Shown one piece after another: positions 3,116 to 64,000 of a stretch of DNA of 64,000 nucleotides. Origin of the DNA: an uncultured Saprospiraceae bacterium (GTDB lineage: Bacteria; Bacteroidota; Bacteroidia; Chitinophagales; Saprospiraceae); the NCBI GenBank assembly GCA_963837505.1, contig CAWINN010000006.1, positions 30,826-94,825 on the forward strand. The letters are read 5' to 3'. The number at the start of each line of letters is the position of its first letter. Position 1 is the first letter of the stretch. Below the pieces are notes generated by a model. The model saw nothing but the letters and a program-made list of their open reading frames with translations, did no database searches and had not been told where the DNA came from. A program made the position numbers and the translations under genes.

Positions 3116-3445
3116 TATCCAATATATTTTGATATTCACGAAAACTCACGACTCATGCTTCGACCTGCTTATGCTCAACCTTGTGCTACAGCTCAGCAAC
3201 CGCGATTCATGAAAACTCACTACTCACGATTCACGATTCACGATTCACGGAAACTCACGATTCACGACTGACGATTCACGGAGACTCACGACTCACGATT
3301 CACGATGACGATTCACATCGGATCACGACAACTCACGACTCACGACTCACCACGCCCACTCACGACTCCACTACGTCACGACTCACTGCTCACGACTCAC
3401 GACTCACTACTCACACTCACTACTCACCACTCACCACTCAAAAAC
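3116..3445. repeat. Heptanucleotide tandem array (CACGATT/CACGACT)n containing one copy of the conserved ~50-nt element (3154-3204, reverse orientation)
   Basis: Direct reading. The array is the reverse complement of the (AATCGTG)n arrays at 51.8-52.5 kb. It generates the artefactual HDSRLTIHDSR ORFs. Confidence 0.9.
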
Positions 3446-4049: not shown

Positions 4050-4068
4050 ACTACTTACCCTCTTCGTT

Positions 4069-5106: not shown

Positions 5107-5136
5107 TGGTCATTCGTCATTCGTCAAAAAGTAATG

Positions 5137-33012: not shown

Positions 33013-33100
33013 GGGGCGGAAGGGGCGGAAGGGGCGGAAGAGGTGGAAGAGGCGGAAGGGGCGGAAAGGGCGGAAGGGGCGGAGGGGCAAGGGCGGAAAA
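33013..33100. repeat. Nonanucleotide tandem array (GGGGCGGAA)n
   Basis: Direct reading. It is followed by the palindrome CCCCACCTTTAAAGGTGGGG at about 33121-33140. Confidence 0.9.
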
Positions 33101-36084: not shown

Positions 36085-38290
36085 TTATAAAATAATAATT
36101 CGTTTCCGATAGGTTATCCCCTCCTGGTGAATGATCAGGGAATACACTCCGGCATTCAACCTGGAAATATTGACAGACTCGTTCTGACCTACATTTGATT
36201 TTTCCAAAACTAATTTTCCATCCATGGTAAACAGCAGGAGTTGAAATGAAGCATTTACATGTAATGGTAAGGCCATTTTAATTTCATCCCGTGCAGGATT
36301 TGGCCAAACTAACATTTGAGGGTCCGCCTGGATATCTTTCGTTCCCGTTAAAATCAACACGCTCAAATAGAAAGTATCCGATTGGCATTCATTACTGATG
36401 ATTAAGGTCGCCTCATACGCTCCGTCATTGTATTGATGAACCGGGTTTTGTTCCTCGCTCATGTCTCCGTCTCCGAACAACCACAGGACATGGTCAACTG
36501 CCCCAAGGGAGGTATTGGTAAATGTAACTACCTGCCCTTCCTGAGTAAAGGTGGCATCTGCTGATAACTCAGGACTTCCCAGGTGGTTCACCATTTGCTG
36601 TACCCCTTCGCTCATATTATAGTACGTTCCGCTGGGTGTACGTTGTAAATTCATCGCCCGGACCATATAGGTGATGTCCCCTTCAAAAGCAAGACAGGAA
36701 TCAGTATATTCCTCTTTGGTGATTGGGTCAGCGTTGAGGCGAATGAAGTCCTCCTCATTTGCACCTTTGCGATAGACATTGTAGCCCATGATTGAATCCG
36801 GTGAAGGCTCCCAGGTTAACCGGACATGGTAGCCTGCATTGGATACATCCAGTTTGGAAACCGGGGCAATGATATCATTACGCAACGTCGGATCACCCAT
36901 CAGCCCGATGCTTACGAAGCGGGCACCATAACTCGCGAAATAAGTACTGCTGTTATTTTGCGTGGTCCGAGCACAATAGCCGATCGTTTCGCCCATGGCC
37001 ATTTGATGAAACACCCAATGTGGTCTTCCGCTCCAGGCATTAGTCAGGGTCAATCCCTGGGCCAGCGGTGCGCGCAGGAAATTGTTCTGCGAATCCCAGT
37101 CCCCGAAATAACTGCCGAATAACATGGTGAACACAGATTGTGTGTGAGAATTGGCAAAATCTGCGGTGCTGCCAATGCCGCCGGCGCCCTGGAACCATCC
37201 GCCACCACAACCATAGGACCATAAATAACTACTGTCGGCCATAGTGGTGAGATAATCACTGGCTGTTACCCTTTCAGGACTGACAATAGGACCGATGTTT
37301 TTATATCCGCTGGAAGCGAAGGCTTCTCCACTGAAATAGCCGAAATTATCATCTATCAAACCCCTTGACATGGGTGTAAACAATTTCTGCCGAAAGGCGT
37401 GATCTTTATTTAAATAGTTACGCAGCAATTCCACTTCACTGGCAGCGAAGGCAGGCATGTTGGCAAAATCAACGCGACCTATTTGCAATTCTATGTCACT
37501 TGGAATCAAACTTTGATCAAATTTTCCATCTCCGGGAATATTGCGATTGCGTACATCACCGGCCACTGTATCATTGACCGTGACATCAGTCCAGGTACCG
37601 TTCATGTCGCCGTAATAGGTATCCGTAGGCCACGCACCCAGATGATCGGGGTGACCATCAGGATTCAGTTCTCCACTGTACGGGACAGGCACATGACCGA
37701 GGATAAATACGCACTTTGCTTTCGGGCTGCTGGCATCGTATACTTGTTTGATTTGTGTTTTCACTTCAGTTGCTGAAGCTGAGCGATCGGCTTCAATGGT
37801 GGTTACCCGCCATCCATCTCCTTCAGCATCCTTGATCCATTGATCTGTTTCCGGTTGAAGGGAATCCACCATCGTCCGGTCTACGACGAGAATGAGATTT
37901 CCTCTTGACTCTACCAGGGGCACTTCAATGCCTGAATTGATATAACCATAGCCGGTGTAAGCAGCTGCTGATCGTATCACTCTGTATTCGTAGCTGGTCC
38001 CGATGCTAACCGTTGAATCAATGAAGGTGGTTGCATCTCCTGTTAGTGTTCCTATGGTTCCACTCCAGTTAGTGGAGTTTTTTGGTTTTCTGGCTACCGT
38101 GTATTGTGTAGCTCCTGCATTAGGAATCCAATGCAGGGTAATGCGTGGAGGATTTTTCTGGACTTCAGCACTGAGTTCTACGCTGGCATCCTGGCAGGAT
38201 TGGGAGTAGCAGAGGCTGAGGCTGAGACTGAGGCTGAGGCTGAGAGCTGAGGCTAAGGCTGAGGAAATATTTAGGAGAGAGTGATTTCAT
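36085..38290 (-). pseudogene. Secreted FN3 + caspase-fold (gingipain/C25-like) + PKD protein with T9SS CTD. The 5' end is frameshifted inside a hexanucleotide repeat (or the assembly has an indel)
   Basis: The reading frame of 36085..37980 stays open upstream to 38286 (..ALASALSLSLSLSLSLCYSQSCQDASVELSAEVQKNPPRITLHW..) but has no start codon there. ATG at 38290 (MKSLSPKYFLSLSLS...) is in the -1 frame and terminates at 38165. One 7-nt unit (CTGAGAG, 38240-38246) interrupts the 6-nt array. Downstream motifs: ILGHVPVPYSG, SYGCGGGW, a PKD domain, and a VWPNPARDEI tail. Confidence 0.6.
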
Positions 38291-38331
38291 GGCGATGGAT
38301 TGAGTGGTTTTCAAAGATATGTTTTCTATGG

Positions 38332-38487
38332 CCACAGGTACAACCTGTGGCAAAGGATGTTGGATCCCTTCGGGATGCGCCACGGGTACAACCCGTGGGT
38401 GATAATGTTGCATCCCTTCGGGATGCTGGTAAGATCCCTTCGGGATCATTCTCTTATCCTTCGGGATCAATCTCTTATCCTTCGGGA
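38332..38487. repeat. Array of 7 short GC-rich stem-loops from two families (CCACRGGTACAACCYGTGG and GATCCCTTCGGGATC), including a 20-nt tandem duplication
   Basis: Hairpins at 38332-50, 38364-76, 38380-98, 38410-26, 38433-47, 38456-67 and 38476-87. The A>G change in one arm is matched by T>C in the other. Confidence 0.85.
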
Positions 38488-40936
38488 TCATTGGACAGAC
38501 AGGGTGATTTTTTGTTCAATCAGGCCGGGGGAGGTTGCTTTGACTTCGATATTTCCTGGTGTGTAAGATGCACGAAGGATCAGCATCGCTTCTCCGTAAA
38601 AGGTCTTTATGTGATCGCTTTGAAAGGATTCCATGGCTTGTGGATTTCCGTTGCCGACACCGGCGATCGATCCTGCGCCTGAAATCTCCAGGCGGATATC
38701 ATTATCCGCAGCGGGACATACATTACCGTCTTCATCGGTCACTTGAATAGTTACATAAGACAAATCAAGTCCATCGGCATGAATGGTTTTCCGGTCCGTC
38801 ATAAGCTTAATCGCATATGGCTTACCTGTCGTGACTATTTTTTCCTCTCCTATTTTCACCCCCTCTTTGTACGCCACTGCTTTCAATTCACCGGGTTGAT
38901 AAGTCACATCGTTCCATCTCAGGCGAAATCGTTCTGTGGATTTTGGTGAGTCCGGAACTTTACATTTTGTCCCCAATGATTTTCCATTCAGAAAAAGTTC
39001 AGCACAATCTCCGCTGGTGTACACAAACACGGGAATGGTTTTTCCTTCCATACCCGGCCAGGTCCAATGTGGTAAAATATGAATGGTCGTGTCCTGTTGA
39101 TCCCAATAACTTTTATAGAGATAATAGCGATCCTTGGGCAAGCCGACCAGATCGAAGATGCCGAAGTAGGAACTTACGGAAGCTTCTTTATCTGTCATTC
39201 CCATTCGCCTGACGACCTGCATTATCGTAAGGCGTAGGTTCGCCGAGATAATCAAAACCTGTCCAGACAAATTCACCGGCGACATAATTTTCTTCCTGCT
39301 GCCACATGAAATCATCATCCGGAATCTCTGCCCAATCCGGTGCATTCAGATCGTAGGAACTGACTTGCAACGATGTCGTAAAATCGGTTTTCTTCTCAGG
39401 GAGGGGCCATTCATAAAATCCTCTTGTGCTCACCGTCGATGCGGATTCTGAGATGATCACTGCCTTATTGGGTTCCAATTGACGGGCGAGATCATAGCGG
39501 CGTCCATAATTCCAGCTATGCACATCGTAATAATCAAAGTGACGGAGAGCGGCACTGTTACGACTATCACAAACTAAAGTGACCGGACGGGACATGTCAT
39601 AGTGTCGAACCGCATTGACCATCGTCCGGAGTTTTTCAAAGCCACCATTTTTATTCCATTGCACATCCCCGATTTCATTGCCGACGCTCCAGAGAAAAAT
39701 GCAGGGATGATTGCGATCGCGCATGACAAAATTCCGAACATTTCGATTCGAGAAGGATTCGAAACCGGTAGTATCCAAAATGTCTGCTTTACGATCGTAT
39801 TTATCAAAAATCTCATCCAGTACGAGGATACCCATTTTATCACACAGCTCCAGCAGTTCGGGCGCGGGACAGTTGTGGCTGGTCCGGATGGCATTGCATC
39901 CCATGGATTGTAACAACTCCAGCTGGCGTTGCATGGCGCGGGGATAAAATGCTGCGCCCAGTGGACCCTGATCGTGGTGAAGACATACGCCTTTCAGTTG
40001 CACGCGGTGGTCGTTGAGATAAAAACCGTCATCGGAGGTGAATCGAATCGACCTTACGCCGAAAGGAGTCGAATACTCATCCAGCACCACATCATTCTTT
40101 CGCACGAAGGTTTTCAACGTGTACATCACCCCGTGATTGATTTCCCATCGGTCGGGATTTGTGAGGGTGATCGTGCCTTCAAAATTTTTAGCAGCATTTG
40201 CGGAAAGGCTTCCTTTACTACTAATGGAAGAAACCATATTTCCATTTGGGCTATATATACTTTGTTCAATTTCTATATCCTCCGCTACTGCGGCAGATTG
40301 ATTAACAATCGTGGTAATGAAGTTTACGCTGGCATAGTTTGGTTTAATAACAGGCGTCGTGACTTGTGTACCCCAGATATCCACATGAACCGGATTGACG
40401 GCGATCAATTGGACCTTGCGATATATGCCGGCTCCGGGGTACCATCGGCTGTCATGTTGACGTGTATCCGCGTGGATGGCGAAAACATTTTTATCCTTCC
40501 CTTTGACCTGGTCGGTGATATCGATATAAAAGGAATTATAGCCGTAGTCCCATTTTCCCGTGAGTACTTCGTTTACATATACTTGTGGGAAAGCCATGAC
40601 GCCATCGAAAAGAAGAAAGATTCGTTTCCCCTGCATGGAAGGCGGCATGGTCCAGGTGTACCGGTACCAGCCTTCCCCTTTCCAGGGAAGTTTCGCGGTA
40701 TTGCCATCGCCATCGGGATCAAACGGGCCGGTGATGGCCCAGTCGTGAGGAATCGAAATGGATTGCCAGTCGGATTCATCGCAATTGATGCTGGCTGCAT
40801 TTTCATTGGGGCCTGAATAAAATTTCCATCCAGTAGTCAGGGTTTGTATTTCCCGTGGTTGCGCACGAAGGGGAAATGAAATGCAGGTACAACTTATCCA
40901 AAAGGCAAGCACCATATTTCGAAGGAAAAAAGTCAT
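38488..40936 (-). pseudogene. Glycoside hydrolase family 2 (beta-galactosidase-like), split by a 1-nt frameshift near 39195-39215
   Basis: ORF 39188..40936 carries the signal peptide, sugar-binding and TIM-barrel parts (NAIRTSHNCPAPE, NHPCIFLWSVGNEIG, GEFVWTGFDYLGEPTPY). ORF 38488..39345 continues in another frame with SSYFGIFDLVGLPKDRYYLYKSYW and the Ig-like C-terminal domains. Confidence 0.8.
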
Positions 40937-42647: not shown

Positions 42648-43370
42648 TTACTTCGGCATTGAAGGACGCACTTCAATTTTACTTGGCAGGGTGCGCGGGT
42701 TCATCTTCAACAAATCAATGACGATCTGGCCGATATCTTCCGGTTGTATTTTCCAGTCATCTTCAGTGGAAGGAATATGATGATTGAAATGAGTGGCTAC
42801 TGATCCTGGCATGATGGTGCTCACTTTGATGCCATATTTACGGAGATCGAGCATAGCGGCCTGTGTAAAACCTACGAGACCAAATTTACTGGCGTTATAA
42901 GCGGCTCCATTGGCAAAGAAATTAGTTCCGGCGAGACTGGCTATGGTGATGAAATATCCTTTGCTTTGTTTAAGTGCCTCAATGGAGGCTTGCAACGAAT
43001 AGAAAACGCCAGTGAGATTGGTATCGATGATCTCATGCCATTGATCGTGGGGTATGGTTTCGATGGGGCCGAAGTAGCCAACGCCGGCATTGGCAATCAC
43101 GACGTCAAGCGATTTCCATTGCTCTGTAATGTTTGCCACGGCTTTCTGCTGTGCAGCAAAGTCACGTGCATCTGCCTCTATTGCAAGAGCATCAGGTGCT
43201 CCAAGCTTTTGCAATTCATCGGCAGCCTGTTGAGCGTCGGCCAGATGGCGGCTGGTAATGGCCACTTTCATATGCTCTGCGGCCATGGCTTTGGCAATGC
43301 CAAGACCGATGCCTTTGGAACCTCCGGTGATTAATGCAGTCTTTTGTTGAAGTGGAAGAAGTGTGCTCAT
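42648..43370 (-). CDS. Short-chain dehydrogenase/reductase (SDR) family oxidoreductase
   Basis: TGGSKGIGLGIA cofactor motif, NAG motif (IANAGVG) and catalytic YNASK. Confidence 0.85.
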   Translation of the reverse strand: MSTLLPLQQKTALITGGSKGIGLGIAKAMAAEHMKVAITSRHLADAQQAADELQKLGAPDALAIEADARDFAAQQKAVANITEQWKSLDVVIANAGVGYFGPIETIPHDQWHEIIDTNLTGVFYSLQASIEALKQSKGYFITIASLAGTNFFANGAAYNASKFGLVGFTQAAMLDLRKYGIKVSTIMPGSVATHFNHHIPSTEDDWKIQPEDIGQIVIDLLKMNPRTLPSKIEVRPSMPK

Positions 43371-43400
43371 AGGGGTGAAATTAGGGAGAAAGGAGCAGAG

Positions 43401-43455
43401 AGTATGAGAGGTATGAGCGGTATGAGCGGTATGAGCGGTATCAGCAGTATGAGAG
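43401..43455. repeat. Nonanucleotide tandem array (GGTATGAGC)n
   Basis: Direct reading. It begins about 30 nt upstream of the SDR start codon. Confidence 0.85.
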
Positions 43456-43529
43456 GGACGAGAGGAAGTCAGGATTATTATACAATTAGCAGCTGTTGAG
43501 AAAGAATTGAGTGTTCGTCAATCGTCAAT

Positions 43530-44380
43530 CGCGGTTGCTGAACTGTAGCACAAGGTTGAGCATAAGCAGGTCGATGCATTGACGCTTATGGAAAAAGAGT
43601 TGGCCTCTTTGCTTGCGGAAAACTCACCCCCATCCCCTCTCTTTAAATTTTGACTTTCGGAACGGAAAAGTTTTTCGCAGAAGAGAGGGGAGTCATATCT
43701 CCCCCTCTATTTTGGCACATCAATTCGCATTTCTGCACATTCATTTCGAAAAGAGAGGGGGGCGGGGGGTGAGTTAATACAGGCCGCTGATTTTCGCCAT
43801 GTTGCTGAACTGTAGCACAAGGTTGAGCATAAGCAGGTCGATGCATTGACGCTTATGGAAAAAGAGTTGGCCTCTTTGCTTGCGGAAAACTCACCCCCAT
43901 CCCCTCTCTTTAAATTTTGACTTTCGGAACGGAAAAGTTTTTCGCAGAAGAGAGGGGAGTCATATCTCCCCCTCTATTTTGGCACATCAATTCGCATTTC
44001 TGCACATTCATTTCGAAAAGAGAGGGGGGCGGGGGGTGAGTTAATACAGGCCGCTGATTTTCGCCATGTTGCTGAACTGTAGCACAAGGTTGAGCATAAG
44101 CAGGTCGAAGCATTGACGCTTATGGAAAAAGAGTTGGCCTCTTTGCTTGCGGAAAACTCACCCCCATCCCCTCTCTTTAAATTTTGACTTTCGGAACGGA
44201 AAAGTTTTTCGCAGAAGAGAGGGGAGTCATATCTCCCCCTCTATTTTGGCACATCAATTCGCATTTCTGCACATTCATTTCGAAAAGAGAGGGGGGCGGG
44301 GGGTGAGTTAATACAGGCCGCTGATTTTCGCCATGTTGCTGAACTGTAGCACAAGGTTGAGCATAAGCAGGTCGATGCAT
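43530..44380. repeat. 267-bp tandem repeat, 3 near-identical copies plus a terminal partial copy; noncoding
   Basis: Identical 67-aa artefact ORFs at 43643, 43910 and 44177 show an exact 267-nt period. Each unit is the ~46-50-nt conserved element plus a ~155-nt segment bounded by ~24-nt inverted repeats (AACTCACCCCCATCCCCTCTCTTT ... AAAGAGAGGGGGGCGGGGGGTGAGTT) with a central 11-bp hairpin. Confidence 0.9.
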
Positions 44381-44479
44381 GAATCGTGAATTGTGAGTGT
44401 TCGTGAGGCGTGAATCGTGAGGCATGAAACGAAGTCCGAACTTAGCCTTTTGTCCGCCTGTTAAAAAAAACAGAAAAAA

Positions 44480-44925
44480 CGGTAACATTTAGGAATCTCG
44501 GGACACTTACACCTGGCAGGGGTTTTCGACGAAATCTAAACGATAAAGCGTAAGGTCCTCCTTATGTCCCGTCCTGAACTTGAAAAGTCCTTAATATCGG
44601 TGTTTGGCAACCGCCTTTGGTCTTACCTCTCCCTGGTCCTGAAAAAATAATGCCGAATAAACGGTAACATTTCGGTATCTCAAGACACTTACATGTGGCA
44701 GGGGTTTTCTACGAAATCTAAACGATAAAGCGTAAGGTCCTCCTTATGTCCCGTCCTGAGCTTGAAAAGTCCTTAATATCGGTGATTGGCAACCGCCTTT
44801 GGTCTTACCTCTCCCTGGTCCTGAAAAAATAATGCCGAATAAACGGTAACATTTCGGCATCTCAAGACACTTACACCTCGCAGGGGTTTTCGACGAAATC
44901 TAAACGATAAAGCGTAAGGTCCTCC
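44480..44925. repeat. 182-bp tandem repeat, about 2.5 copies; noncoding, directly upstream of gene 45021
   Basis: CGGTAACATTT recurs at 44480, 44662 and 44844, an exact 182-nt period. The copies differ by scattered point substitutions. The third copy diverges after GTAAGGTCCTCC into the upstream region of the lipocalin-like gene. Confidence 0.9.
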
Positions 44926-45020
44926 GTATACCTGCTCGTCAGCTATAACCTCCTCCATCACGGGTCTTTAGTCCCTCGTCACCATCAAATTGCTTAATTT
45001 GAGCGCACAATCCACCGATT

Positions 45021-45389
45021 ATGCTGAATTCCCGAATTGCCACATTGACTATTTTTACATTCCTTTTCCTGGTCTCGTGTGATGACGACAAACAAAATAA
45101 ACTCATCGTCGGTCACTGGACAGGCGTAGAGTGGCTGGAGGAAGGCGCCCCCTCCATTTACACTCCTGCAGATGCCTCGTTTCAATTTGATTCCACCGGC
45201 AACTATGGCTTCACTTATGCCGGGAATACCGAAAATGGAAAGTATTATGTAAGGAACCATCAATTATTCACTACGCCGGAAGGGGGTATCAAAATGATGG
45301 TCAAGGTGATCAAACTGGATCAGGATACGTTGCGGTTTGATATGAATCGCGGAGGGAAAGCAGAACGGTTAACGCTTATAAAAAAATAG
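45021..45389 (+). CDS. Lipocalin-like lipoprotein
   Basis: Lipobox FLFLVSCDDD. LIVGHWTGVEW...GKYYV.NHQLF...MVKVIKLDQDTLRF matches the lipocalin-like domain pattern. It is distantly similar to 3481..3912. Confidence 0.7.
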   Translation: MLNSRIATLTIFTFLFLVSCDDDKQNKLIVGHWTGVEWLEEGAPSIYTPADASFQFDSTGNYGFTYAGNTENGKYYVRNHQLFTTPEGGIKMMVKVIKLDQDTLRFDMNRGGKAERLTLIKK

Positions 45390-49189: not shown

Positions 49190-51820
49190 GTGATTGATGA
49201 TTATTGTTTTAATAAAACCAATTTGAAATTCCTTTTTCCTATATTATTTCTATTCCTGGTCAGCGTTAACTCCCGGGCGCAGCCCTGGATGTCGGAGCCC
49301 TATCTGAAAATAAAGAAGCCGGCCGACACGCTGAAGCAAACCAATTTCTACGAAATTCAGAAAGCCTTTGAACGCTATGAAAAAAAGGAATTGCGTAAAA
49401 AGGATAAACGTGAAAAAATAACAGGCGAAGAAGAGGAAGGTGAATTTCCCGGCGACGCCCAATTTCATCGCTGGGAAAATCACATGATGCCCAGGGTTTA
49501 TCCATCCGGAGATATTACACTCCCCTCAACAGCTTTTACTGAATTCCAGAAATACCTGGCCTCGCCTCTTCACCAGGCACGATCTGTATTACTCGCGGAT
49601 TGGACCTCCCTGGGGCCGACTGGTACCGTGACCAACGGAGATTTCGCCGGTGCCGGCAGAGTAAATTTTTTACGCTTTGATCCGGTCGACCCGGATAAAA
49701 TGTGGACAATGTCTCCTTTGGGCGGACTATGGAAATCTATCAATGGTGGTCAAACCTGGACCACGAACACTGACCTCCTGCCGATCATAGGTTGCTCCGA
49801 TATTGCCATCGATCCACAAAATACTCAGATCATGTACCTCGCTACGGGTGACGCCAATGGCACCGGTTCTCAACTCACGATAGCTTCCATTGGGATATTG
49901 AAATCAACAGATGGTGGAGTGACCTGGCCCCCGTCAAGTAACACGATGAACTGGGATGTCAGCACGAACCGCGGCATATATAAACTATTAATCCACCCCA
50001 CTCACCCAGACACTGTTTTTGCCGCCACCAGCGTAGGTGTCTACCGAACTGTGAATGGCGGCGGTGATTGGATACAGATGATTGCAGGTGCTTTCACCGA
50101 TGTGGAATTCAAACCAGGCCATCCGTCAACAGTGTATGCCGCTGCTGGTATTAAATACGGTGGTACGTTTTACAAATCCGTCGATGATGGTGTCACTTTC
50201 AATCCCATCAGTGCCGGACTCCCCTCGTCGGGCAGTGTGGCGCGTTTTGAAATTGGGGTCACCCCTGCTGATTCCAACTATGTATATGTCGTAGCCGTAA
50301 AGAAAAACAGTTATGACTTCTATGGATTCTATCGCTCCGTAAATGGCGGCGATCAATTCAACCTGCAAGCTAATACGCCTGATATTCTGTTCGGCACACC
50401 GAGTTCACAAGCCTGGTATAATTTAAGCATGGCCGTTTCGCCTTTGCACAAGGATACCATCCTCGTAGGTGCCACCAACATCTGGCGGAGCCTGGACGGC
50501 GGACTGACCTGGACCAAACACACCAGTGAAAATGGAGGTTTCATTCCTTTCGTTCATCCGGATCATCATTCGATTACTTTCTATCCCGGAACCGATTCGA
50601 TCTACTATTCCGGTAATGATGGTGGAGTATTTAAAACCACTGATCGAGGTGTGACGTGGACGACAATGAATGAAGGATTGCAGATTTCGCAGATGTATAA
50701 ATTTGGCGTATCGCCATTAGATCCATATACGATCATGACGGGCCACCAGGACATGGCGACAGAAATCCTGCGGGATACGGTGTGGAATATGTTTACGATC
50801 AACACCGGCGATGGGATGGAAAATATATATGAACATGACAACGACACGATCCGTTACCTGGAGTCGTATAAGGGAAACATCAGGGTCACCTATAATAATT
50901 ACCCGCTATATACCATCATTTGCAAGACCACGGGAAGTGGCGTGGATACTATCGGAAGCTGGATCACTCCTTTTATCATGAATCCGAGACATGATTCCAC
51001 GTTGCTGGTAGGAAAAACCCAGGTGTGGCGCACTGTGGATGGAGGGCAATCCTTTACCCAGGTCGGGAATGTCAGCGGAGGCAATACCTACCTCATCGCG
51101 CTGGCTTATGCTGAGTCCGATACCAATTACATCTATGCAGCTAAGTCCGATAAATTTTTCGCAACTGAAGACGGGACCAATTTCTATGACAGGACCGGCC
51201 TTCTGCCTGTTGCTTCCGCCAGCATAACCGCCATCGCGGTGAGTAATGCAGATCCTAAAAAAGTATGGGTAACCTTTTCCGGGTACAGTGCTGCCAATAA
51301 AGTCTGGTATTCTCCTGATGCGGGAGTAACGTGGAGTAATTATTCAACGGGCTTACCTAATCTTCCGGTCAATTGCATTACTTATCAGCATGCTTCGGAT
51401 GATGGTTTGTATGTGGGCACGGATGTGGGTGTTTACTATATTGATCAATCCTATAGTTCGTGGCAATCCTTTTTTACCGGATTACCAAATGTGGATGTAG
51501 AAGAACTTGAAATTTCTTATCCGATCGGAAAGATCCGGGCGGCAACGAATGGAAGAGGCCTTTGGGAATCCGATGTCGCTGTTCCCATACCAACCAGCTT
51601 CACCTGGGTGGGAAGTGTTTCTGCAGACTGGAATAATCCGGCTAACTGGAATCCACATGGTGTGCCAACAATATTGCAGGACGTGATCATTCCCGATGTC
51701 AATCCACCAAATCATGATCCGATTGTCAATGTGACGGGACTGGGCTGCCGGGATTTGACTTTACTGCCCGGGGCGAATATGAAAGTGATGCAGGGGAAGG
51801 TGTTTAGGAGTGAAAAGTGA
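49190..51820 (+). CDS. BNR/Asp-box repeat (sortilin/Vps10-like or GH74-like beta-propeller) protein, apparently lacking the expected C-terminal sorting domain
   Basis: At least 9 Asp-box motifs (SINGGQTW, STDGGVTW, SLDGGLTW, TTDRGVTW, SPDAGVTW and others). The likely true start is the TTG at 49223 (MKFLFPILFLFLVSVNSRAQ). The ORF ends right at the edge of the heptamer array. Confidence 0.8.
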   Translation: MIDDYCFNKTNLKFLFPILFLFLVSVNSRAQPWMSEPYLKIKKPADTLKQTNFYEIQKAFERYEKKELRKKDKREKITGEEEEGEFPGDAQFHRWENHMMPRVYPSGDITLPSTAFTEFQKYLASPLHQARSVLLADWTSLGPTGTVTNGDFAGAGRVNFLRFDPVDPDKMWTMSPLGGLWKSINGGQTWTTNTDLLPIIGCSDIAIDPQNTQIMYLATGDANGTGSQLTIASIGILKSTDGGVTWPPSSNTMNWDVSTNRGIYKLLIHPTHPDTVFAATSVGVYRTVNGGGDWIQMIAGAFTDVEFKPGHPSTVYAAAGIKYGGTFYKSVDDGVTFNPISAGLPSSGSVARFEIGVTPADSNYVYVVAVKKNSYDFYGFYRSVNGGDQFNLQANTPDILFGTPSSQAWYNLSMAVSPLHKDTILVGATNIWRSLDGGLTWTKHTSENGGFIPFVHPDHHSITFYPGTDSIYYSGNDGGVFKTTDRGVTWTTMNEGLQISQMYKFGVSPLDPYTIMTGHQDMATEILRDTVWNMFTINTGDGMENIYEHDNDTIRYLESYKGNIRVTYNNYPLYTIICKTTGSGVDTIGSWITPFIMNPRHDSTLLVGKTQVWRTVDGGQSFTQVGNVSGGNTYLIALAYAESDTNYIYAAKSDKFFATEDGTNFYDRTGLLPVASASITAIAVSNADPKKVWVTFSGYSAANKVWYSPDAGVTWSNYSTGLPNLPVNCITYQHASDDGLYVGTDVGVYYIDQSYSSWQSFFTGLPNVDVEELEISYPIGKIRAATNGRGLWESDVAVPIPTSFTWVGSVSADWNNPANWNPHGVPTILQDVIIPDVNPPNHDPIVNVTGLGCRDLTLLPGANMKVMQGKVFRSEK

Positions 51821-51822
51821 TG

Positions 51823-52520
51823 AGTTGTGAGTTGTGAGTGGTGATGTGAGTCGTGAATCGTGAATCGTGAATCGTGAGTTTTCGTGAATCGTGAATCGTG
51901 AATCGTGAGTTTTCGTGAATCGGGTGAGCTGAGTTGTGAGCATAAGCGGTGAATCGTGAATCGTGAGTTTTCGTGAATCGTGAATCGTGAATCGTGAGTT
52001 TTCGTGAATCGCGGTTGCTGAGCTGTAGCACAAGGTTGAGCATAAGCAGGTCGAAGCATGAATCGTGAGTTTTCGTGAATCGTGAATCGTGAATCGTGAG
52101 TTTTCGTGAGTCGCGGTTGCTGAGCTGTAGCACAAGGTTGAGCATAAGCAGGTCGAAGCATGAATCGTGAATCGTGAATCGTCAGTCGTGAATCGTGAGT
52201 TTTCGTGAATCGTGAATCGTGAATCGTGAGTTTTCGTGAATCGTGAATCGTGAATCGTGAGTTTTCGTGAATCGCGGTTGCTGAGCTGTAGCACAAGGTT
52301 GAGCATAAGCAGGTCGAAGCATGAATCGTGAGTTTTCGTGAATCGTGAATCGTGAATCGTGAGTTTTCGTGAATCGTGAATCGTGAATCGTGAGTTTTCG
52401 TGAATCGTGAATCGTGAATCGTGAGTTTTCGTGAATCGTGAATCGTGAATCGTGAGTTTTCGTGAGTTTTCGTGAGTCGTGAGTCGTGAATCGTGAGTGG
52501 TGAGTTTTCGTCAGTCGTCA
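51823..52520. repeat. About 700-nt heptanucleotide array (AATCGTG)n with a 31-nt higher-order period and three copies of the conserved ~50-nt element
   Basis: Direct reading. Elements lie at 52010-52060, 52112-52162 and 52273-52323. The array produces three overlapping artefactual ORFs (HDSRFTIHDSRKLTIH...). Confidence 0.95.
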
Positions 52521-52806
52521 ATGGTCCTTCTCGAAAAATACAATATATATGTTCGTCGTAGATTCATCTACGTGGGTGTGTTTGCAAAGCTGAGCTTTGC
52601 CCATGACAACCTATATTTCACTTCTCTGCTCAAAGCACAGCTTTGATGACACCAAATCGTGGGTTAATAGTTCGACTGGCTCACTAACCGCCGACGCTTA
52701 CCATTACGTTTTTTTAGTTTTCATTGGCGTTCCTTCTGTATATTTCGCAGATCATGTTCCCATTTAGTAAAAGCGAACAACGAATACGTAATCAGATTCC
52801 AGTAGC

Positions 52807-53802
52807 ATGAAACACCCATCTTCCTGGACGAAAGCGGACCTGCATCACCATCTCCAGCATGCGATGGACCTGGAATTGTGGACCATACCTCTATACCTGA
52901 CCGCCCTGTACAGCATTAAAGGATTGCATAAACTGAAGCATGCCGATTTTCCTGAAGCGGCCAAGCTTATCTTTTCCGTGGTGGTCCAGGAGATGCTACA
53001 CCTGGAACTCGTGTGCAATCTTACCAATGCTTTGGGATTCTCCCCAAAATTTTTGGTTCCGTCCTATGATGAAAAAGCGGGGATTCCTTTTATTCATCCA
53101 TTGCATGATGCCTTGCCCGCTTATTTGCACGGCTATAGCATCAGGCCACAGGCTTTACATAAAGATAGTCTCCGTTTGTTTTGTGCGATAGAATTGCCGC
53201 ATACCAGAAGAGAAACGATATGGGAAAAGCAGAACACCTGCCACAGTATCGCCAATCTCTATGAAGCATTACAACTGGGCATCGCGGCACTTTGGGAGGA
53301 ATGCTATGTCGGAGATGGCCGCAACACCAGGCAGAAAAATACTTTTCATGAGTACCACAACCAGGACGGCCGTCATCATGGTTTCAGTCAGCGCGTTCAT
53401 TCCGTATCCACGGCCATGAAAGCGATTGATGCGATCATCGAACAGGGAGAAGGTGCTGATACCAGGAATGTTCCTGTAGCTTTTCGCGGAGCAGATTCAG
53501 CAGAAGAAAAGGAATTTGAAACCTCGTGGTTTAAAAGTCATCTCAGCCATTTTCAAAAATTCAGGATGTTGCTGCACGCACACCATCGGTTGCCCGAGGT
53601 GTACCGGGAAGATCCTGACGCCACAGACCTGACAGCTCAACTGCATATGGAAAATGTGTTTGTAGATTTTCTTGGCGATCTGCAAGTCTATTTCAATAGT
53701 GAAGGAGAATCCTTTCCCATGACTTTCTGGCAAAAGATGAATTCGCTCGGCCCGGCGATAGGGGCTGTGTGGGAATCGGGAAGATGTCCAAGCTTTGGTT
53801 AG
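52807..53802 (+). CDS. Ferritin-like domain protein (PF12902-type, VioB C-terminal-like)
   Basis: LQHAMDLELWTIPLYLTALYSIK....VVQEMLHLELVCNLTNALG matches the ferritin-like family motif (E..T.P.YL.A.YS... EEM.H. ..NL.NA.G). Confidence 0.7.
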   Translation: MKHPSSWTKADLHHHLQHAMDLELWTIPLYLTALYSIKGLHKLKHADFPEAAKLIFSVVVQEMLHLELVCNLTNALGFSPKFLVPSYDEKAGIPFIHPLHDALPAYLHGYSIRPQALHKDSLRLFCAIELPHTRRETIWEKQNTCHSIANLYEALQLGIAALWEECYVGDGRNTRQKNTFHEYHNQDGRHHGFSQRVHSVSTAMKAIDAIIEQGEGADTRNVPVAFRGADSAEEKEFETSWFKSHLSHFQKFRMLLHAHHRLPEVYREDPDATDLTAQLHMENVFVDFLGDLQVYFNSEGESFPMTFWQKMNSLGPAIGAVWESGRCPSFG

Positions 53803-57456: not shown

Positions 57457-57571
57457 CAATGCCCCTAAATCCCCTAAAGGGGACTTCGCTGACACCATGA
57501 CGTAGGTCAACCTACGCCAAACAACCGCTGTTTCCACGGCTCCATGGCCATGGCCATGATCGAATAATAAC

Positions 57572-58673
57572 CTATGTTGTTTTGGCGTATTCGAGGGCGG
57601 CTTCCGTCTGGGAGAAACACATTTTGCACACCCGCTTTTGGGCTCCAAAACTCAGTAACTCAATATCGGAAGATAGAAACCCATCCTTAACGGGTTCTTC
57701 TTTCAGCAGATCGGTGCTCAGATATTTCTTATTACTGTCCGGAAAAACAGTGACTACTATTTTATCCTTGCCCCATTGGTTTTGTGCTTTAAGCGCCCCA
57801 AGAAAATTAGCGCCGGAAGAAATGCCCACTGCTAATCCCAACTGAGAGGCGAGTTGCTGCGCCATGAGGATGGCATCACCATCATCCACAGATATCACTT
57901 CATCCAGGTGGTCAAGATGGACAATGGCCGGAATGAATTCATCAGAGATGCCCTGAATTCTGTGTTTGCCCACTTTATATCCCGTCGTCAGGGTCGGAGA
58001 ATTGGCTGGTTCGAGCGGATGAATTTTGATGCGGGGGTCTTGTTCTTTCAAAAACCTACCCACGCCCATGACCGTGCCACCGGATCCAACACCGGCGACA
58101 AAAGCATGCGGGGCCTCATCATTGACTTTCATCTGGTACCAGATTTCCGGTCCCGTCGTTTGATAATGCGCTTCGGAGTTGTCTTCATTGGAAAACTGGC
58201 TGGAGACAAAACCGTCCTGTTTCTGCTGCAGCCTGATTGGCCATCTCGATACTGCCGAGAAAACCGCCTTCCTCTTTACTGACCAATGTAATTTTAGCCC
58301 CCATGCTCTTGATGAGGTTGATCCGTTCCACGCTCATCCAGTCCGGCATGAATATATGGACCTGGTGGCCTAATGCTCTGCCGATCGATGCTATGGAGAT
58401 GCCGGTATTGCCACTGGTCGCTTCGTAGATCGGCATGCCGGGTTGCAGCGTTCCTTTTTCGTAGCCATGGGTAATAATGTAATACGCCATGCGATCCTTG
58501 ATGCTGCCGGTCATGTTGAGACTTTCTGCTTTGGCATAGATCGTTCTATGCTCCCCTTTATACCTGAGCTGAATGGCCAATAGCGGTGTATTGCCGATTA
58601 AGCTTTTGAGTTCCCGGGCGCGATCAAATTTCATGTTTATGTTTTTTGGCGATAAATTATTTATCGATTGCAC
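57572..58673 (-). pseudogene. cysK: Cysteine synthase (PLP-dependent CysK/CysM family), split by a 1-nt frameshift near 58222-58240
   Basis: ORF 58185..58673 has NTPLL...[14 protein letters not shown] (PLP lysine) and [12 protein letters not shown]. The frame of 57572..58132 extends upstream as [31 protein letters not shown]...[12 protein letters not shown]. The two parts join if one G in AATCAGGCTGCAG is removed. Confidence 0.8.
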
Positions 58674-58960
58674 TGACTGCGGACTCTAAACTATTTAGTA
58701 GCTGCCGGGCAGGGCAGAACACAGGTCAGTGCGTGGTGTGATCTGGGTCAACCCCATCCCATTCATCGATATACTCGAATGGATCACCCCTGTGTTTTGA
58801 AATCCGAAAATTTCGTTGCCCTTATTTTCTCTTTCAACCACCCCGGTGAAAGAGGAATGATTACCATAAGTTACTGGTGTTGGTGGAGCATGATGACGCC
58901 ACCAGCGTGATAAGCGCAGTAGCACAGGGTAGAGCCCTGTAGGGCGAAGGGGTGGAAGGA

Positions 58961-61426: not shown

Positions 61427-64000
61427 ATGAAACGACTGTTAATTCTCTCTACTGTCTTGTTTTTTGGCGCCAGTGCCTTCGCCTGCCAGGCAGGTTTCAA
61501 CTGGGAACAACTCCCCAATACGCTGACCATACATTTTACCAGTACCTCTACGAGCGATCACGAGATTGTATCGTATGTATGGCATTTTGGTGATGGGCAA
61601 GACGGGGATGGCCAAAATCCTAACCATACCTACGCCCAGTCGGGCACCTATAACGCCTGCCTGATCATCACGGATAACGTGGGTTGTGTGAGTGACATTT
61701 GCCACATGGTTATGGTGGCTGCCGTATCGGGCGGGTGCCAGGCAAATTTTGGATATCAACAATTGCCCGGAACGCTGACCATCAATTTCAACAGCACCTC
61801 CACCAGCGAACATGAAATCATTTCCTATTTGTGGGATTTCGGTGACAATCATAGCGCCGACGGACCTAATCCAAGTCACACTTATTCCGAACCAGGAAAT
61901 TATACCGTTTGCCTGACCATCACCGATAATACCGGATGTGTGGATGAGGAATGTAATCTGGTTGTTGTTCAGCCCATTACTCCCGGCAATTGCGAAGCCG
62001 GTTTCAACTGGGAACAATTGCCGAATACCCTCACCATTCATTTTGCTAATACATCCACGAGTGAACATGACATCATCTCCTATATGTGGAATTTCGGGGA
62101 TGGACATAACGGTGACGGACAAAATCCAAATCATACCTATACACAATCCGGTACCTATACGGTATGTCTGACGATCACCGACAATACCGGATGCACAGAC
62201 TCTGTGTGCCACCAGGTGACGGTGGCCCCGGTTTCCTCCGGTGGTTGCCAATCTGATTTTGGATACCAGCAATTAGGGGGAACACTAACTATAAATTTCA
62301 CCAGTACGTCCACCAGTGAACATGAGATCATTTCCTATCTATGGAACTTTGGTGATGGACATACCGGCGACGGACCCAATCCAAGTCATACTTATTCCGA
62401 ACCTGGAAATTATACGGTTTGTCTGACGATTACGGATAATACCGGATGTGTGGATGAGGAATGTAACCTGGTCGTTGTTCAGCCCATTACGCCCGGCGAT
62501 TGTGAAGCCGGATTTACCTGGGAGCAAAGTCCTAATACGCTAACCATTAATTTCACCAGTACCTCGACGAGCGATCACGATATCACTTCCTACTTTTGGA
62601 ATTTCGGCGACAATCATACCGGTGACGGACAAAATCCTCATCATACCTATGCTCAACCCGGCACCTATACGGTTTGCCTGACGATCACGGATAATACCGG
62701 ATGCTCGAGTACGGTTTGTCATGAAGTGGTGGTTGAACAGATAGCTCCCGGAAATTGCATGGCCGATTTCAACTGGGAACAACTCAACAATACCTTAACC
62801 GAACATTTCCATAGTCTTTCTACCAGTGAACATGATATCACTTCTTATCTATGGGATTTCGGAGACGGGCATACCGGCGACGGACAAAATCCTTATCATA
62901 CGTATGATCAAGCCGGCACGTATACCGTATGTCTGACCATCACGGATAATACCGGGTGCACCAGCACCACTTGCCATGAGGTAGTGGTCAATCCTATTAC
63001 TCCGGGCAATTGTGAAGCTGGTTTTAATTGGGAACAATCCCCCAATACCCTGACCATTAATTTCAATAGTACGTCAACGAGCGAACACGACATCATCTCT
63101 TATATGTGGGATTTCGGAGACGGCCATAATGGTGACGGACAAAATCCTCACCATACATATGGAGAACCCGGCACCTACACCGTATGCCTGACCATAACCG
63201 ATAACACCGGTTGCACCAGTACGGTATGTCACGAAGTAGTGGTTGAACAAATAACTCCGGGCGATTGCCAGGCCGAGTTCAACTGGGAGCAACTCACGAA
63301 TACGCTCACAGAACATTTCCACAGTCTCTCTACCACGCAGCATGATATCACTTCCTACCTGTGGGACTTCGGAGATGGTCATACAGGAGATGGAGCCTTT
63401 CCGTATCACACGTATGATTCTGCAGGCGTATATACGGTTTGTCTGACTATCACGGACAATTCAGGTTGTGTCAGCACGATATGCCATGAGGTGGTGGTGA
63501 ATCCGTTTACTCCGGGCAATTGCCAGGCCGGATTCAACTGGGAGCAATATTCCGGTATATACACTGTCCATTTTACCAATACCTCCACGAGTGAACATGA
63601 GATCATTTCTTACCTGTGGAATTTTGGTGACGGCCATACCGGTGACGGACAAAATCCGAATCACATCTATGCCATGCCGGGCACGTACACAGTATGCCTG
63701 ACCATCGCGGACAATACGGGATGCACCAGCACCTTCTGCCAGGATATAGTGGTTCAACAAGTTCCGCCGGGAGATTGCCATGCAGAGTTTAACTGGGAGC
63801 AGTCCAATAATTCACTGACTGAATATTTCCATAGCCTATCTACCACGCAGCACGATATCACATCCTACCTGTGGGATTTTGGAGATGGCCACATGGGCGA
63901 CGGAGCAAATCCTCACCATACATATGAGCAACCTGGCACCTACACCGTATGCCTGACCATCACCGATAATTCAGGATGTACCAGTACGACATGCCATGAG
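61427..64000 (+). CDS. Secreted protein made of at least 10 tandem PKD-like repeats (3' partial, runs off the window)
   Basis: ATG at 61427 gives MKRLLILSTVLFFGASAFA. The frame then stays open to the window end, so it is absent from the ORF track. About 85-aa units: FNWEQLPNTLTIHF.STSTSEHDI.SY.WDFGDGH.GDGQNP.HTY..PGTYTVCLTITDNTGC....C..VVV. Confidence 0.85.
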   Translation, partial: MKRLLILSTVLFFGASAFACQAGFNWEQLPNTLTIHFTSTSTSDHEIVSYVWHFGDGQDGDGQNPNHTYAQSGTYNACLIITDNVGCVSDICHMVMVAAVSGGCQANFGYQQLPGTLTINFNSTSTSEHEIISYLWDFGDNHSADGPNPSHTYSEPGNYTVCLTITDNTGCVDEECNLVVVQPITPGNCEAGFNWEQLPNTLTIHFANTSTSEHDIISYMWNFGDGHNGDGQNPNHTYTQSGTYTVCLTITDNTGCTDSVCHQVTVAPVSSGGCQSDFGYQQLGGTLTINFTSTSTSEHEIISYLWNFGDGHTGDGPNPSHTYSEPGNYTVCLTITDNTGCVDEECNLVVVQPITPGDCEAGFTWEQSPNTLTINFTSTSTSDHDITSYFWNFGDNHTGDGQNPHHTYAQPGTYTVCLTITDNTGCSSTVCHEVVVEQIAPGNCMADFNWEQLNNTLTEHFHSLSTSEHDITSYLWDFGDGHTGDGQNPYHTYDQAGTYTVCLTITDNTGCTSTTCHEVVVNPITPGNCEAGFNWEQSPNTLTINFNSTSTSEHDIISYMWDFGDGHNGDGQNPHHTYGEPGTYTVCLTITDNTGCTSTVCHEVVVEQITPGDCQAEFNWEQLTNTLTEHFHSLSTTQHDITSYLWDFGDGHTGDGAFPYHTYDSAGVYTVCLTITDNSGCVSTICHEVVVNPFTPGNCQAGFNWEQYSGIYTVHFTNTSTSEHEIISYLWNFGDGHTGDGQNPNHIYAMPGTYTVCLTIADNTGCTSTFCQDIVVQQVPPGDCHAEFNWEQSNNSLTEYFHSLSTTQHDITSYLWDFGDGHMGDGANPHHTYEQPGTYTVCLTITDNSGCTSTTCHE

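What the first reader, a model, noticed from the sequence alone, without database searches (positions are those of the whole stretch)
52010..52323. Conserved ~50-nt element always embedded in (AATCGTG)n heptamer arrays; 8 copies in this window
CGCGGTTGCTGAGCTGTAGCACAAGGTTGAGCATAAGCAGGTCGAAGCATG occurs eight times.

- Forward copies: 52010-52060, 52112-52162, 52273-52323, 43530-43579, 43801-43846, 44068-44113 and 44335-44380.
- Reverse-complement copy: 3154-3204.

The copies differ only at a few positions (GAGCTG versus GAACTG, GAAGCAT versus GATGCAT). Each copy is flanked by AATCGTG-type heptamers. I could find only a weak internal stem (TGCT-N7-AGCA), so it does not look like a REP hairpin. 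High conservation against a degenerate simple-repeat background suggests a sequence-specific function. Possibilities include a protein-binding site, a recombination or transposition target, a small RNA core or an origin of heptamer expansion.
Basis: seen in the sequence. Interest (0 to 1): 0.65.

Follow-up and report, generated by a model that had tools for sequence, protein, structure and literature searches.

The report
Tiny 46-base insertion repeat in Saprospiraceae
The repeated ~50-base sequence is real. It is a discrete 46-base element that behaves like a very small mobile insertion, dropped into simple-repeat arrays and hairpin loops in several Saprospiraceae genomes and then copied locally by tandem duplication.

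Summary
In detail: a 26-nt core occurs 8 times in the window and 0 are expected by chance. The common unit E is 46 nt (GTTGCTGA[A/G]CTGTAGCACAAGGTTGAGCATAAGCAGGTCGA[A/T]GCAT). The eight copies represent only three loci, because copies within a locus are recent tandem duplicates. At 43.5-44.4 kb the inner copies are separated by an identical 221-nt spacer that carries a MITE-like palindrome, not by heptamers.

E is not private to this genome. E-like copies with 75-85% identity, the same sharp boundaries and unrelated flanks occur in at least four other Saprospiraceae. One soil MAG holds about 40 copies.

Two filled-versus-empty comparisons show E as a clean 45-46-nt insertion without target duplication or terminal inverted repeats. 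One lies in a heptamer array upstream of mfd and is absent in four sister lineages. The other lies in the loop of a hairpin repeat whose other copies are empty.

There is no RNA structure, no Rfam match, and no recombinase or cas gene in the window.

Best reading: a very small non-autonomous insertion element, analogous to the cyanobacterial small dispersed repeats. The insertion mechanism is unknown. A cis-regulatory role is not excluded.

The parts
3155..3200 (-). E copy, locus 1 (GAGCTG/GAAGCAT variant). It lies 110 nt upstream of, and in the same orientation as, the MobA-like gene 2463-3044(-).
3205..3440 (-). Heptamer array of locus 1 (GTGAATC/GTGAGTC/GTGAGTG on the minus strand), with traces of a 31-nt higher-order unit. 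It is more degenerate towards the gene at 3481.
43534..44380 (+). Locus 2: E-S-E-S-E-S-E, a 267-bp unit repeated 3.2 times. E copies lie at 43534-43579, 43801-43846, 44068-44113 and 44335-44380. The third copy has GAAGCAT and the others GATGCAT.
   Evidence: (D4, D6)
43580..43800 (+). Spacer S (221 nt), repeated identically at 43847-44067 and 44114-44334. Its core 43621-43775 is a ~155-nt palindromic MITE-like element with the terminal inverted repeat AACTCACCCCCATCCCCTCTC / GAGAGGGGGGCGGGGGGTGAGTT. The first ~18 nt of S are an imperfect inverted copy of the last ~18 nt of E.
43511..43533 (+). Short degenerate heptamer flank (GTTCGTCAATCGTCAATCGCG) to the left of locus 2.
44381..44425 (+). Degenerate heptamer flank (GAATCGTGAATTGTGAGTG...) to the right of locus 2.
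51821..52505 (+). Locus 3 host array: heptamers organised in a 31-nt higher-order unit, (GTGAATC)3GTGAGTTTTC. It lies between the stop of the sortilin-like gene (51820) and the ferritin-like gene (52807).
   Evidence: (D3)
52014..52059 (+). E copy, locus 3, first of three.
52116..52161 (+). E copy, locus 3, second of three (102 nt after the first).
52277..52322 (+). E copy, locus 3, third of three (161 nt after the second). Its flanks are 99% identical to those of the first copy over 165 nt.
   Evidence: D5
51923..51949 (+). Shortened, decayed E copy (GGGTGAGCTGAGTTGTGAGCATAAGCGG), one 102-nt unit upstream of the first intact copy.
   Evidence: (period-102 row)
57460..57486 (-). Empty copy of the hairpin repeat AAGTCCCCTTTAGGGGATTTAGGGGCA. 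A copy of this family in another Saprospiraceae genome (L085) carries an E-like insert in its loop.
58908..58950 (+). Possible old decayed E relic (TGATAAGCGCAGTAGCACAGGGTAGAGCCCTGTAGGGCGAAGG). Not statistically significant.
   Evidence: (E = 2.8)

Best explanation
E is a 46-nt, non-coding, non-autonomous dispersed insertion element of Saprospiraceae (Bacteroidota).

Shown:
- It is a discrete module with fixed ends (GG)TTGCTGAG...GTCGAAGCA(T).
- It occurs at unrelated intergenic sites in several genera, with about 40 copies in one genome.
- It appears as a clean insertion, without target-site duplication or terminal inverted repeats, inside short tandem-repeat arrays and in the loop of a hairpin repeat.
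- Once inside an array it is multiplied locally when the host repeat unit is tandemly duplicated. That accounts for the eight copies at three loci in this window.

Inferred:
- A trans-acting factor encoded elsewhere recognises the primary sequence of E and inserts it. That would explain its conservation across genera.
- The preferred targets are DNA that tends to form single-stranded or slipped structures (tandem repeats, hairpin loops).
- E-S-E arrays such as locus 2 grow by unequal recombination between E copies.

The enzyme and the chemistry of insertion are unknown.
For: Discreteness and spread:
- nhmmer with an E profile finds five full-length copies outside the window (E = 1e-9 to 5e-13): L122, L085, L193, L082 and L081.
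- In alignment A1 the flanks are unrelated and similarity stops exactly at the E ends.
- All of these contigs are Saprospiraceae.

Copy number:
- In soil runs that hold the L085/L122 MAG at 7-10x, 36-39 contigs in total (the L085 contig among them) carry a full E-like. The longest contigs listed have depths of about 7-11x.
- Summed depth over E is 404, 291 and 311 against baselines of 9.9, 7.2 and 6.8.
- Most alignments stop at or within a few bases of the E ends and run on into diverse flanks. A minority share part of the L085 hairpin flank.
- Activated-sludge runs show 5-14 further contigs with E-like at exactly 8275-8320 of L193.

Insertion:
- The E-like 25 nt upstream of mfd in L193 is missing at the same place in L206 (95% Mfd identity), L207/L208 (91%), L209/L210 (86%) and L211 (84%).
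- With E removed, L193 aligns colinearly with L206 across CTTCACT|TTCACTT.
- The hairpin AAAGTCCCCT(T)TAGGGGA is empty in L085:9301, L063, L205 and window 57460-57486, but is filled with a 46-nt E-like in its loop at L085:9341.
- L081 has an E-like between two genes whose orthologous spacer in the window has none.

Local amplification:
- Units are 99-100% identical at loci 2 and 3.
- One soil contig carries an E-E tandem.

Not RNA, not coding:
-.
- A 1-nt indel between variants breaks every reading frame.
Against: - No transposase, recombinase, reverse transcriptase or HUH gene lies in the window, and no candidate mobilising enzyme was identified anywhere.
- No insertion event was seen within a population: all eight sludge runs of the L193 species carry the filled allele.
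- E has neither terminal inverted repeats, nor target duplication, nor subterminal hairpins, nor a clearly conserved target (5' flanks end in CT or GC). It therefore fits no known transposition chemistry.
- Conservation of the whole 46 nt across genera is more than most selfish miniature elements show. It could instead reflect a host function.
- Within the window, loci 1 and 3 share flanks, so spread together with the heptamer array cannot be separated from independent insertion.
- The copy-number estimate assumes that the equal-depth contigs belong to one genome.
Confidence: 0.6

Rival explanations
1. E is primarily a host cis-acting site: an operator or protein-binding site, a promoter module, or a 5'-UTR element. 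It is kept by selection upstream of genes, and its insertion-like appearance is secondary, for example a promoter-carrying cassette.
For: - Primary-sequence conservation across genera, with about 23 invariant positions.
- Five of the six informative loci have E in the sense orientation of an adjacent gene. This covers window locus 3, L122, L085, L193 and L082; L081 is antisense.
- E lies 25-110 nt upstream of the start codon in L193, L122, L085 and window locus 1.
- In L193 the E variant places a TTTG 19 nt upstream of a TAACTTTG box. From my own knowledge this matches the Bacteroidetes -33/-7 promoter pattern.
Against: - L082 lies between convergent gene ends, and L081 is antisense to both neighbouring genes.
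- The downstream genes are unrelated in function: mfd, a MobA-like gene, a ferritin-like gene, a lipocalin-like gene.
- E is absent upstream of mfd in four sister lineages.
- Tandem multiplication with 56-221-nt spacers is unlike an operator.
- Five of six is not significant (binomial p about 0.11).
- No sigma-54, ECF or -33/-7 consensus is conserved within E (read).
Confidence: 0.2
2. E is a passive passenger: a stretch of unique sequence caught in a higher-order repeat and spread only by segmental duplication or gene conversion between heptamer arrays of this one genome.
For: - Copies within a locus are identical together with their flanks.
- Loci 1 and 3 share 110 nt at 96% (pair I1).
- The exact 23-mer core is absent from 185,579 species-representative genomes and from the metagenome contig collection.
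Against: - E-like copies sit in other genera inside different repeats ((TTCACTC)n, (AAGGCT)n, (GGCAGA)n, a hairpin loop) or with no repeat at all (L122, L081). Homology between arrays cannot explain that.
- One other genome carries about 40 copies with diverse flanks.
Confidence: 0.04
3. E is (part of) a small RNA or another structured RNA element, and the arrays are multi-copy RNA genes.
For: It is intergenic, mostly oriented like neighbouring genes, and conserved across genera.
Against: - No Rfam match even at E <= 5.
- Single-sequence folds are no better than shuffles (z from -1.25 to +0.82).
- RNAalifold gives -6 kcal/mol with 0 compensatory pairs.
- The element has no terminator.
Confidence: 0.07
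4. E is a solo end, or the repeat, of a larger system: the terminal repeat of an IS or MITE whose body lies elsewhere, or an orphan CRISPR-like repeat.
For: - The repeat-spacer-repeat layout at loci 2 and 3.
- Its length of 46 nt and its GTTG start recall the long Bacteroidetes CRISPR repeats (my own recollection).
- In the soil MAG about 10 copies share a partly similar upstream flank (57% agreement).
Against: - The spacers are identical (221 nt) or simple repeats of 56 and 115 nt, and the spacing is irregular.
- No cas or transposase gene lies in the window.
- Most copies elsewhere are singletons.
- In most copies both ends of E abut unrelated sequence.
- Nothing turned up in plasmid or phage records or in viral contigs.
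Confidence: 0.05

Closest known systems
Small dispersed repeats (SDR1-8) of Nostoc punctiforme and relatives (Elhai et al. 2008, Genome Res 18:1484). Cited from memory; the paper is not held in the library. Its citation was seen in PMC3116915.
   Same: Very small, non-coding, dispersed and nearly identical copies. They sit in intergenic DNA, nested inside tandem heptamer repeats, hairpins and other repeats. Comparison of related genomes shows them as insertions. There is no associated transposase and the mechanism is unknown. The host genome is also rich in heptamer arrays.
   Different: E is 46 nt rather than 21-27 nt and belongs to a different phylum (Bacteroidota, Saprospiraceae). It has no sequence similarity to the SDRs. 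E is not itself part of a conserved hairpin, and it is conserved across genera.
REP / REPIN elements mobilised by RAYT (IS200-like Y1 transposases) (PMC3116915; PMC3733652)
   Same: Short, intergenic, multi-copy and non-autonomous. Often clustered. Presumed to be mobilised in trans.
   Different: REPs are 20-40-nt imperfect palindromes with a terminal GTAG or CGTC tag, often in inverted pairs. E has no palindrome, its GTAG is internal and not conserved, and its copies are in direct orientation. No RAYT gene was seen.
MITEs, including the ~160-nt palindromic family to which the spacer S belongs
   Same: Non-autonomous, dispersed and intergenic, showing presence/absence differences between relatives.
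   Different: MITEs have terminal inverted repeats and target-site duplications and are usually longer than 100 nt. E has neither. S does have 21-25-nt terminal inverted repeats.
IS200/IS605-derived palindrome-associated transposable elements (from my own knowledge)
   Same: No terminal inverted repeats, no target duplication, and insertion into single-stranded DNA or hairpin-prone DNA would fit the targets seen.
   Different: These elements need subterminal hairpins and a fixed 4-5-nt target 5' of the left end. E shows neither: 5' flanks end in CT or GC, and there are no stable hairpins.
Intergenic heptamer arrays: LSSR (Mrazek 2007), cyanobacterial STRR, and TAACTGA repeats (MacGregor 2015, PMC4679880)
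   Same: The host arrays of E are of this kind: intergenic tandem heptamers with strain-specific length, known in some Bacteroidetes.
   Different: Those reports describe the arrays, not a conserved unique element inserted in them.

Membership tests
REP/REPIN (RAYT-associated) | 20-40-nt imperfect palindrome forming a stable hairpin | tested here: not met
   Fold z-scores from -1.25 to +0.82 on both strands. The consensus fold is -6 kcal/mol with no covariation.
REP/REPIN (RAYT-associated) | Conserved GTAG or CGTC tetranucleotide at one end; frequent inverted pairs | tested here: not met
   GTAG is internal (positions 12-15) and varies between genomes (GTCG, GCAG, GAAG). Copies within a locus are all direct.
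REP/REPIN (RAYT-associated) | A RAYT (IS200-like Y1) gene in the same genome | not testable with these tools
   None in the 64-kb window. The rest of the genome is not available.
MITE | Terminal inverted repeats | tested here: not met
   The ends GGTTGCTGAG and GTCGAAGCAT share only TGCT/AGCA.
MITE | Target-site duplication flanking the insert | tested here: not met
   Filled versus empty sites CCCCT|TAGGGG and CTTCACT|TTCACTT show no duplication.
MITE | Many dispersed copies with presence/absence between relatives | tested here: met
   About 40 copies in one MAG. Absent at the mfd site in four sister lineages.
CRISPR array | Regularly spaced repeats separated by unique spacers of similar length | tested here: not met
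   Spacers are three identical 221-nt units, or simple repeats of 56 and 115 nt.
CRISPR array | Adjacent cas genes | tested here: not met
   No Cas domain in any window ORF scanned. Elsewhere in the genome was not testable.
IS200/IS605-type miniature element | No terminal inverted repeats and no target duplication | tested here: met
IS200/IS605-type miniature element | Subterminal hairpins and a fixed tetra- or pentanucleotide target 5' of the left end | tested here: not met
   No stable hairpins. The 5' flanks are ...CCCCT...TCACT...TGCCT...ATCGC...CCCGC and ...GCAGC.
Cyanobacterial small dispersed repeats (SDR; a kind, not a homologous family) | Very small dispersed repeat nested in tandem heptamers, hairpins or other repeats, seen as an insertion between related genomes | tested here: met
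   The definition of SDR itself is recalled from memory.
Cyanobacterial small dispersed repeats (SDR; a kind, not a homologous family) | Length 21-27 nt; cyanobacterial host; sequence families SDR1-8 | tested here: not met
   E is 46 nt and its host is Saprospiraceae. Sequence comparison with SDR1-8 was not possible because the paper is not held.
Described structured RNA (Rfam 15) | Match to a covariance model, or conserved base pairs with covariation | tested here: not met
   No match at the gathering threshold in the window, nor at E <= 5 in 43350-45050. No compensatory pairs.
Intergenic heptamer arrays (LSSR/STRR type), for the host array only | Tandem 7-nt units in intergenic DNA | tested here: met
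   TRF rows at 3215-3440 and 51821-52505, plus at least 5 other arrays in the window. Literature.

The most novel reading that the evidence does not exclude
E is the mobile unit of an undescribed insertion system shared by the family Saprospiraceae. On this reading, a 46-nt element without inverted repeats, target duplication or hairpins is recognised along its whole sequence by a conserved trans-acting factor. That factor could be a DNA- or RNA-templated enzyme. It would place E into slipped-strand or hairpin DNA of short tandem repeats. This would be a new transposition-like mechanism, and it would explain the equally unexplained cyanobacterial small dispersed repeats by analogy.
Probability: 0.2. 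Interest if true: 0.8.

Novelty: new variant of a known kind. Interest (0 to 1): 0.6.

Why it matters
Very small dispersed repeats that behave as insertions but match no known transposition chemistry have been described, as far as I know, only in cyanobacteria, and they remain unexplained.

A second case now exists in an unrelated phylum. It shows the same habit of nesting in heptamer arrays and hairpin loops, its sequence is conserved across genera, and it has tens of copies per genome.

That makes the question tractable by comparative genomics: which gene family co-occurs with E? Saprospiraceae are abundant in activated sludge, so population data are plentiful.

Practically, these elements and their host arrays break short-read assemblies and inflate intergenic regions in such MAGs.

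Tried and rejected
- Exact 23-mer core scans of the genome and metagenome contig collections found nothing. The window's own species is essentially absent from public data. Two soil runs hold it only at trace depth.
- Rfam found nothing, either at gathering or at permissive thresholds.
- Plasmid and phage BLAST, and a degenerate E pattern on viral contigs, gave only chance-level matches or none.
- RNA or DNA structure was rejected.
- Coding potential was rejected. There are stops in two forward frames, and a 1-nt indel between variants breaks the frames. The long minus-strand ORFs across the arrays are artefacts of stop-free repeats.
- Sigma-54, ECF and -33/-7 promoter readings of E were compared by eye with the alignment. 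None has a conserved fit.
- An integron attC-like or G|TT crossover reading does not fit.
- A linked recombinase, RAYT or cas gene was not found in the window.
- Three further Saprospiraceae loci (L203-L205, about 50 kb) and five mfd loci (about 95 kb) contain no E-like, so E is not uniformly dense.
- No empty mfd allele was found within the L193 species in 8 runs.
- The Elhai 2008 paper could not be read.
- MAFFT misaligned the mfd upstream repeats, so a pairwise alignment with E removed was used instead.

Full report
**Observation.** Its 26-nt core is exact at eight places. No shuffle of 100 gave a single match.

Reading the three regions and the repeat tables shows that the unit common to all copies is 46 nt: E = GTTGCTGA[A/G]CTGTAGCACAAGGTTGAGCATAAGCAGGTCGA[A/T]GCAT.

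- Locus 3 (51821-52505) is a heptamer array organised in a 31-nt higher-order unit. It carries three E copies 102 and 161 nt apart, plus a shortened, decayed copy at 51923-51949.
- Locus 1 (3134-3440, minus strand) has one copy.
It is E-S-E-S-E-S-E with three identical 221-nt spacers (267-bp tandem repeat, 99-100% identical). Heptamers occur only on its outer flanks.

Copies within a locus are identical together with their flanks: 165 nt at 99% in locus 3 and 300 nt at 100% in locus 2. Loci 1 and 3 share 110 nt at 96%, with all 4 differences in the flanks. High conservation inside the window is therefore mostly recent duplication. The eight copies represent three loci. GTGA[AG]TN arrays occur in the window only at these loci.

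**Surroundings.** The window is from a Bacteroidota organism with type IX secretion (T9SS) cargo proteins, SusC/D-like pairs and PKD repeats. The closest proteins are from Saprospiraceae at no more than 72% identity. No transposase, integrase, RAYT, reverse transcriptase or cas gene is present in the window.

Intergenic DNA in the window is unusually rich in short tandem repeats. Such heptamer arrays are documented in some Bacteroidetes, Cyanobacteria and Beggiatoaceae (PMC4679880).

The spacer S contains a ~155-nt palindromic core (43621-43775). Its terminal inverted repeat AACTCACCCCCWTCCCCTCTC occurs in at least 120 metagenome contigs, typically as ~160-nt palindromic units. S is therefore a MITE-like element, and locus 2 is a nest of repeats.

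**E outside this genome.** The exact 23-mer core is absent from the genome and metagenome collections. However, BLAST and an nhmmer profile over the 2.1-2.2 Mb of fetched loci found five full-length E-like copies (E = 1e-9 to 5e-13):

- L122 and L085, two contigs of one Saprospiraceae MAG;
- L193, a Saprospiraceae of activated sludge;
- L082, Saprospiraceae MAG GCA_040004485.1;
- L081, a syntenic relative of the window.

In alignment A1 about 23 positions are invariant. A 4-5-nt central patch is variable and includes a 1-nt indel. Similarity ends exactly at the E ends, and the flanks are otherwise unique.

Public runs extend this picture. In soil runs that hold the L085/L122 MAG at 7-10x, 36-39 contigs in total (the L085 contig among them) carry a full E-like. 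The longest contigs listed have depths of about 7-11x. Summed depth over E is about 40 times the baseline, and most alignments end at or within a few bases of the E boundaries and run on into diverse flanks. One contig has two E copies in tandem.

In sludge runs, 5-14 further contigs match L193 exactly over 8275-8320. Several of their flanks are hexamer arrays, (AAGGCT)n and (GGCAGA)n. The association with short tandem repeats is therefore general, though not obligatory: L122 and L081 have none.

**Insertion.** Two comparisons show E as an insert.

1. In L193, E lies 25 nt upstream of the mfd start codon inside a (TTCACTN)n array. The same site lacks E in sister lineages whose Mfd is 95, 91, 86 and 84% identical, and these lineages still carry repeat arrays there. 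With the 45 nt removed, L193 aligns colinearly with L206 across CTTCACT|TTCACTT.
2. The hairpin repeat AAAGTCCCCT(T)TAGGGGA is intact in L085:9301, L063, L205 and window 57460-57486. The copy at L085:9341 has a 46-nt E-like exactly in its loop, CCCCT|...|TAGGGG.

In addition, L081 carries an E-like in a spacer whose ortholog in the window has none.

There is no target-site duplication and there are no terminal inverted repeats. In the window the insert sits at GTGAATCG(C)|...|TGAATCG.

**What it is not.**
- Not a structured RNA. There is no Rfam match, folds are no better than shuffles, and RNAalifold finds no compensatory pairs.
- Not coding. There are stops, and the indel shifts the frame.
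- Not CRISPR. Spacers are identical or simple repeats, spacing is irregular, and there are no cas genes.
- Not REP/REPIN. There is no palindrome, no terminal tag and no inverted pairs.
- Not a classical MITE. It lacks both terminal inverted repeats and target duplication.
- Nothing similar in plasmid or phage records or in viral contigs.

**Mechanism.**

Shown:
- E is a discrete, multi-copy element that appears as a precise insertion at unrelated sites in several genera.
- It is locally multiplied by tandem duplication of the host unit.

Inferred:
- A trans-acting factor recognises the primary sequence of E. This would explain why the whole 46 nt stays conserved between genera whose proteins are only 65-70% identical.
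- The factor inserts E preferentially into DNA prone to slipped or hairpin structures.
- E-S-E arrays grow by unequal recombination between E copies. The E-S junction is an imperfect palindrome, CATAAGCAGGTCGATG|CATTGACGCTTATG.

The enzyme is unknown.

A host cis-regulatory role remains possible. E is in the sense orientation of a neighbouring gene in 5 of 6 informative loci, and it is often 25-110 nt upstream of a start codon. Against this, E lies between convergent genes in L082, is antisense in L081, precedes unrelated genes, and is dispensable upstream of mfd in sister lineages.

**Comparison and novelty.** The closest analogue I know is the small dispersed repeats of Nostoc punctiforme (Elhai et al. 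2008). I recall this from memory, because the paper could not be read. Those are tiny repeats nested in heptamer arrays and hairpins, seen as insertions, with no known mechanism.

E differs in length (46 versus 21-27 nt), in phylum, and in its conservation across genera. I found no description of it. I therefore rate it a new variant of a known kind.

**Verdict.** The interpretation needs revising in part: the element is an insert into the arrays, not their origin. Interest is moderate to high (0.6).

Noticed in passing
window 1772-1926, 3963-4058, 5097-5126, 21901-22058, 27842-27895, 33013-33088, 38212-38264, 43397-43465: Many other intergenic short tandem arrays with different units: a 29-mer, CTTACTA, CATTCGT, GTAATCA, GCAGTGG, AGCCTT, GGGGCGGAA, GAGGCT and AGAGGTATG. 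In round numbers this is about 10 arrays in 64 kb, against about 15 in 1.4 Mb of other Bacteroidota loci. None of them carries E.
   Followed up: partly
window 43621-43775 (and +267, +534); loci L083-L202: The core of spacer S belongs to a widespread ~160-nt palindromic MITE-like family. Its terminal inverted repeats are AACTCACCCCCWTCCCCTCTC...GAGAGGGGAAGGGGGTGAG.
   Followed up: partly
window 44463-45008: A 182-bp unit is repeated about 2.5-3 times (92-94% identity) directly after locus 2, upstream of the lipocalin-like gene at 45021. There is no Rfam match and no other copy in the window or the loci.
   Followed up: partly
window 57460-57486(-), 52583-52645; L085, L063, L205: Small hairpin modules are shared between distant Bacteroidota genomes. 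Examples are AAAGTCCCCTTTAGGGGAT.TAGGGGC, and CAAAGCTG.GCTTTG-type hairpins after gene ends.
   Followed up: partly
L193 8320-8359; L206-L208 upstream of mfd; window loci 1 and 3: The same heptamer family (CACGACT/CACGATT, the reverse complement of GTGAGTC/GTGAATC) lies upstream of mfd in sludge Saprospiraceae. In activated-sludge metagenomes the repeat stretch next to E (L193 8320-8359) reaches 65-120 times the depth of the flanking single-copy DNA.
   Followed up: partly
window 38488-40936 and 57572-58673: Two genes appear to be split. A GH2 glycosidase is divided into overlapping ORFs 38488-39345 and 39188-40936. A PLP-dependent enzyme is divided into 57572-58132 and 58185-58673. These are frameshifts, pseudogenes or assembly indels.
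   Followed up: no
window 51820-52807 versus the P0002 contig and L081: In relatives, one or two genes lie between the sortilin-like and ferritin-like genes: a 270-aa protein plus PhzF in the P0002 contig, and a 272-aa protein in L081. In the window that interval is filled by the E/heptamer array.
   Followed up: no
L193 8254-8300(-): The E variant upstream of mfd places a TTTG exactly 19 nt before a TAACTTTG box that sits 7 nt from the start codon. This resembles the Bacteroidetes -33/-7 promoter pattern (my own knowledge). The empty allele in L206 has no TTTG at that spacing.
   Followed up: no
window 38331-38492: A 48-nt unit repeated twice and a 21-nt unit repeated 2.7 times, with hairpins (GCCACAGGTACAACCTGTGGC and GCATCCCTTCGGGATGC), lie downstream of the GH2 gene.
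   Followed up: no
window 61490-64000: A 255-bp periodicity (63-82% identity) reflects PKD-domain repeats of a large secreted protein. It is coding and unrelated to E.
   Followed up: no
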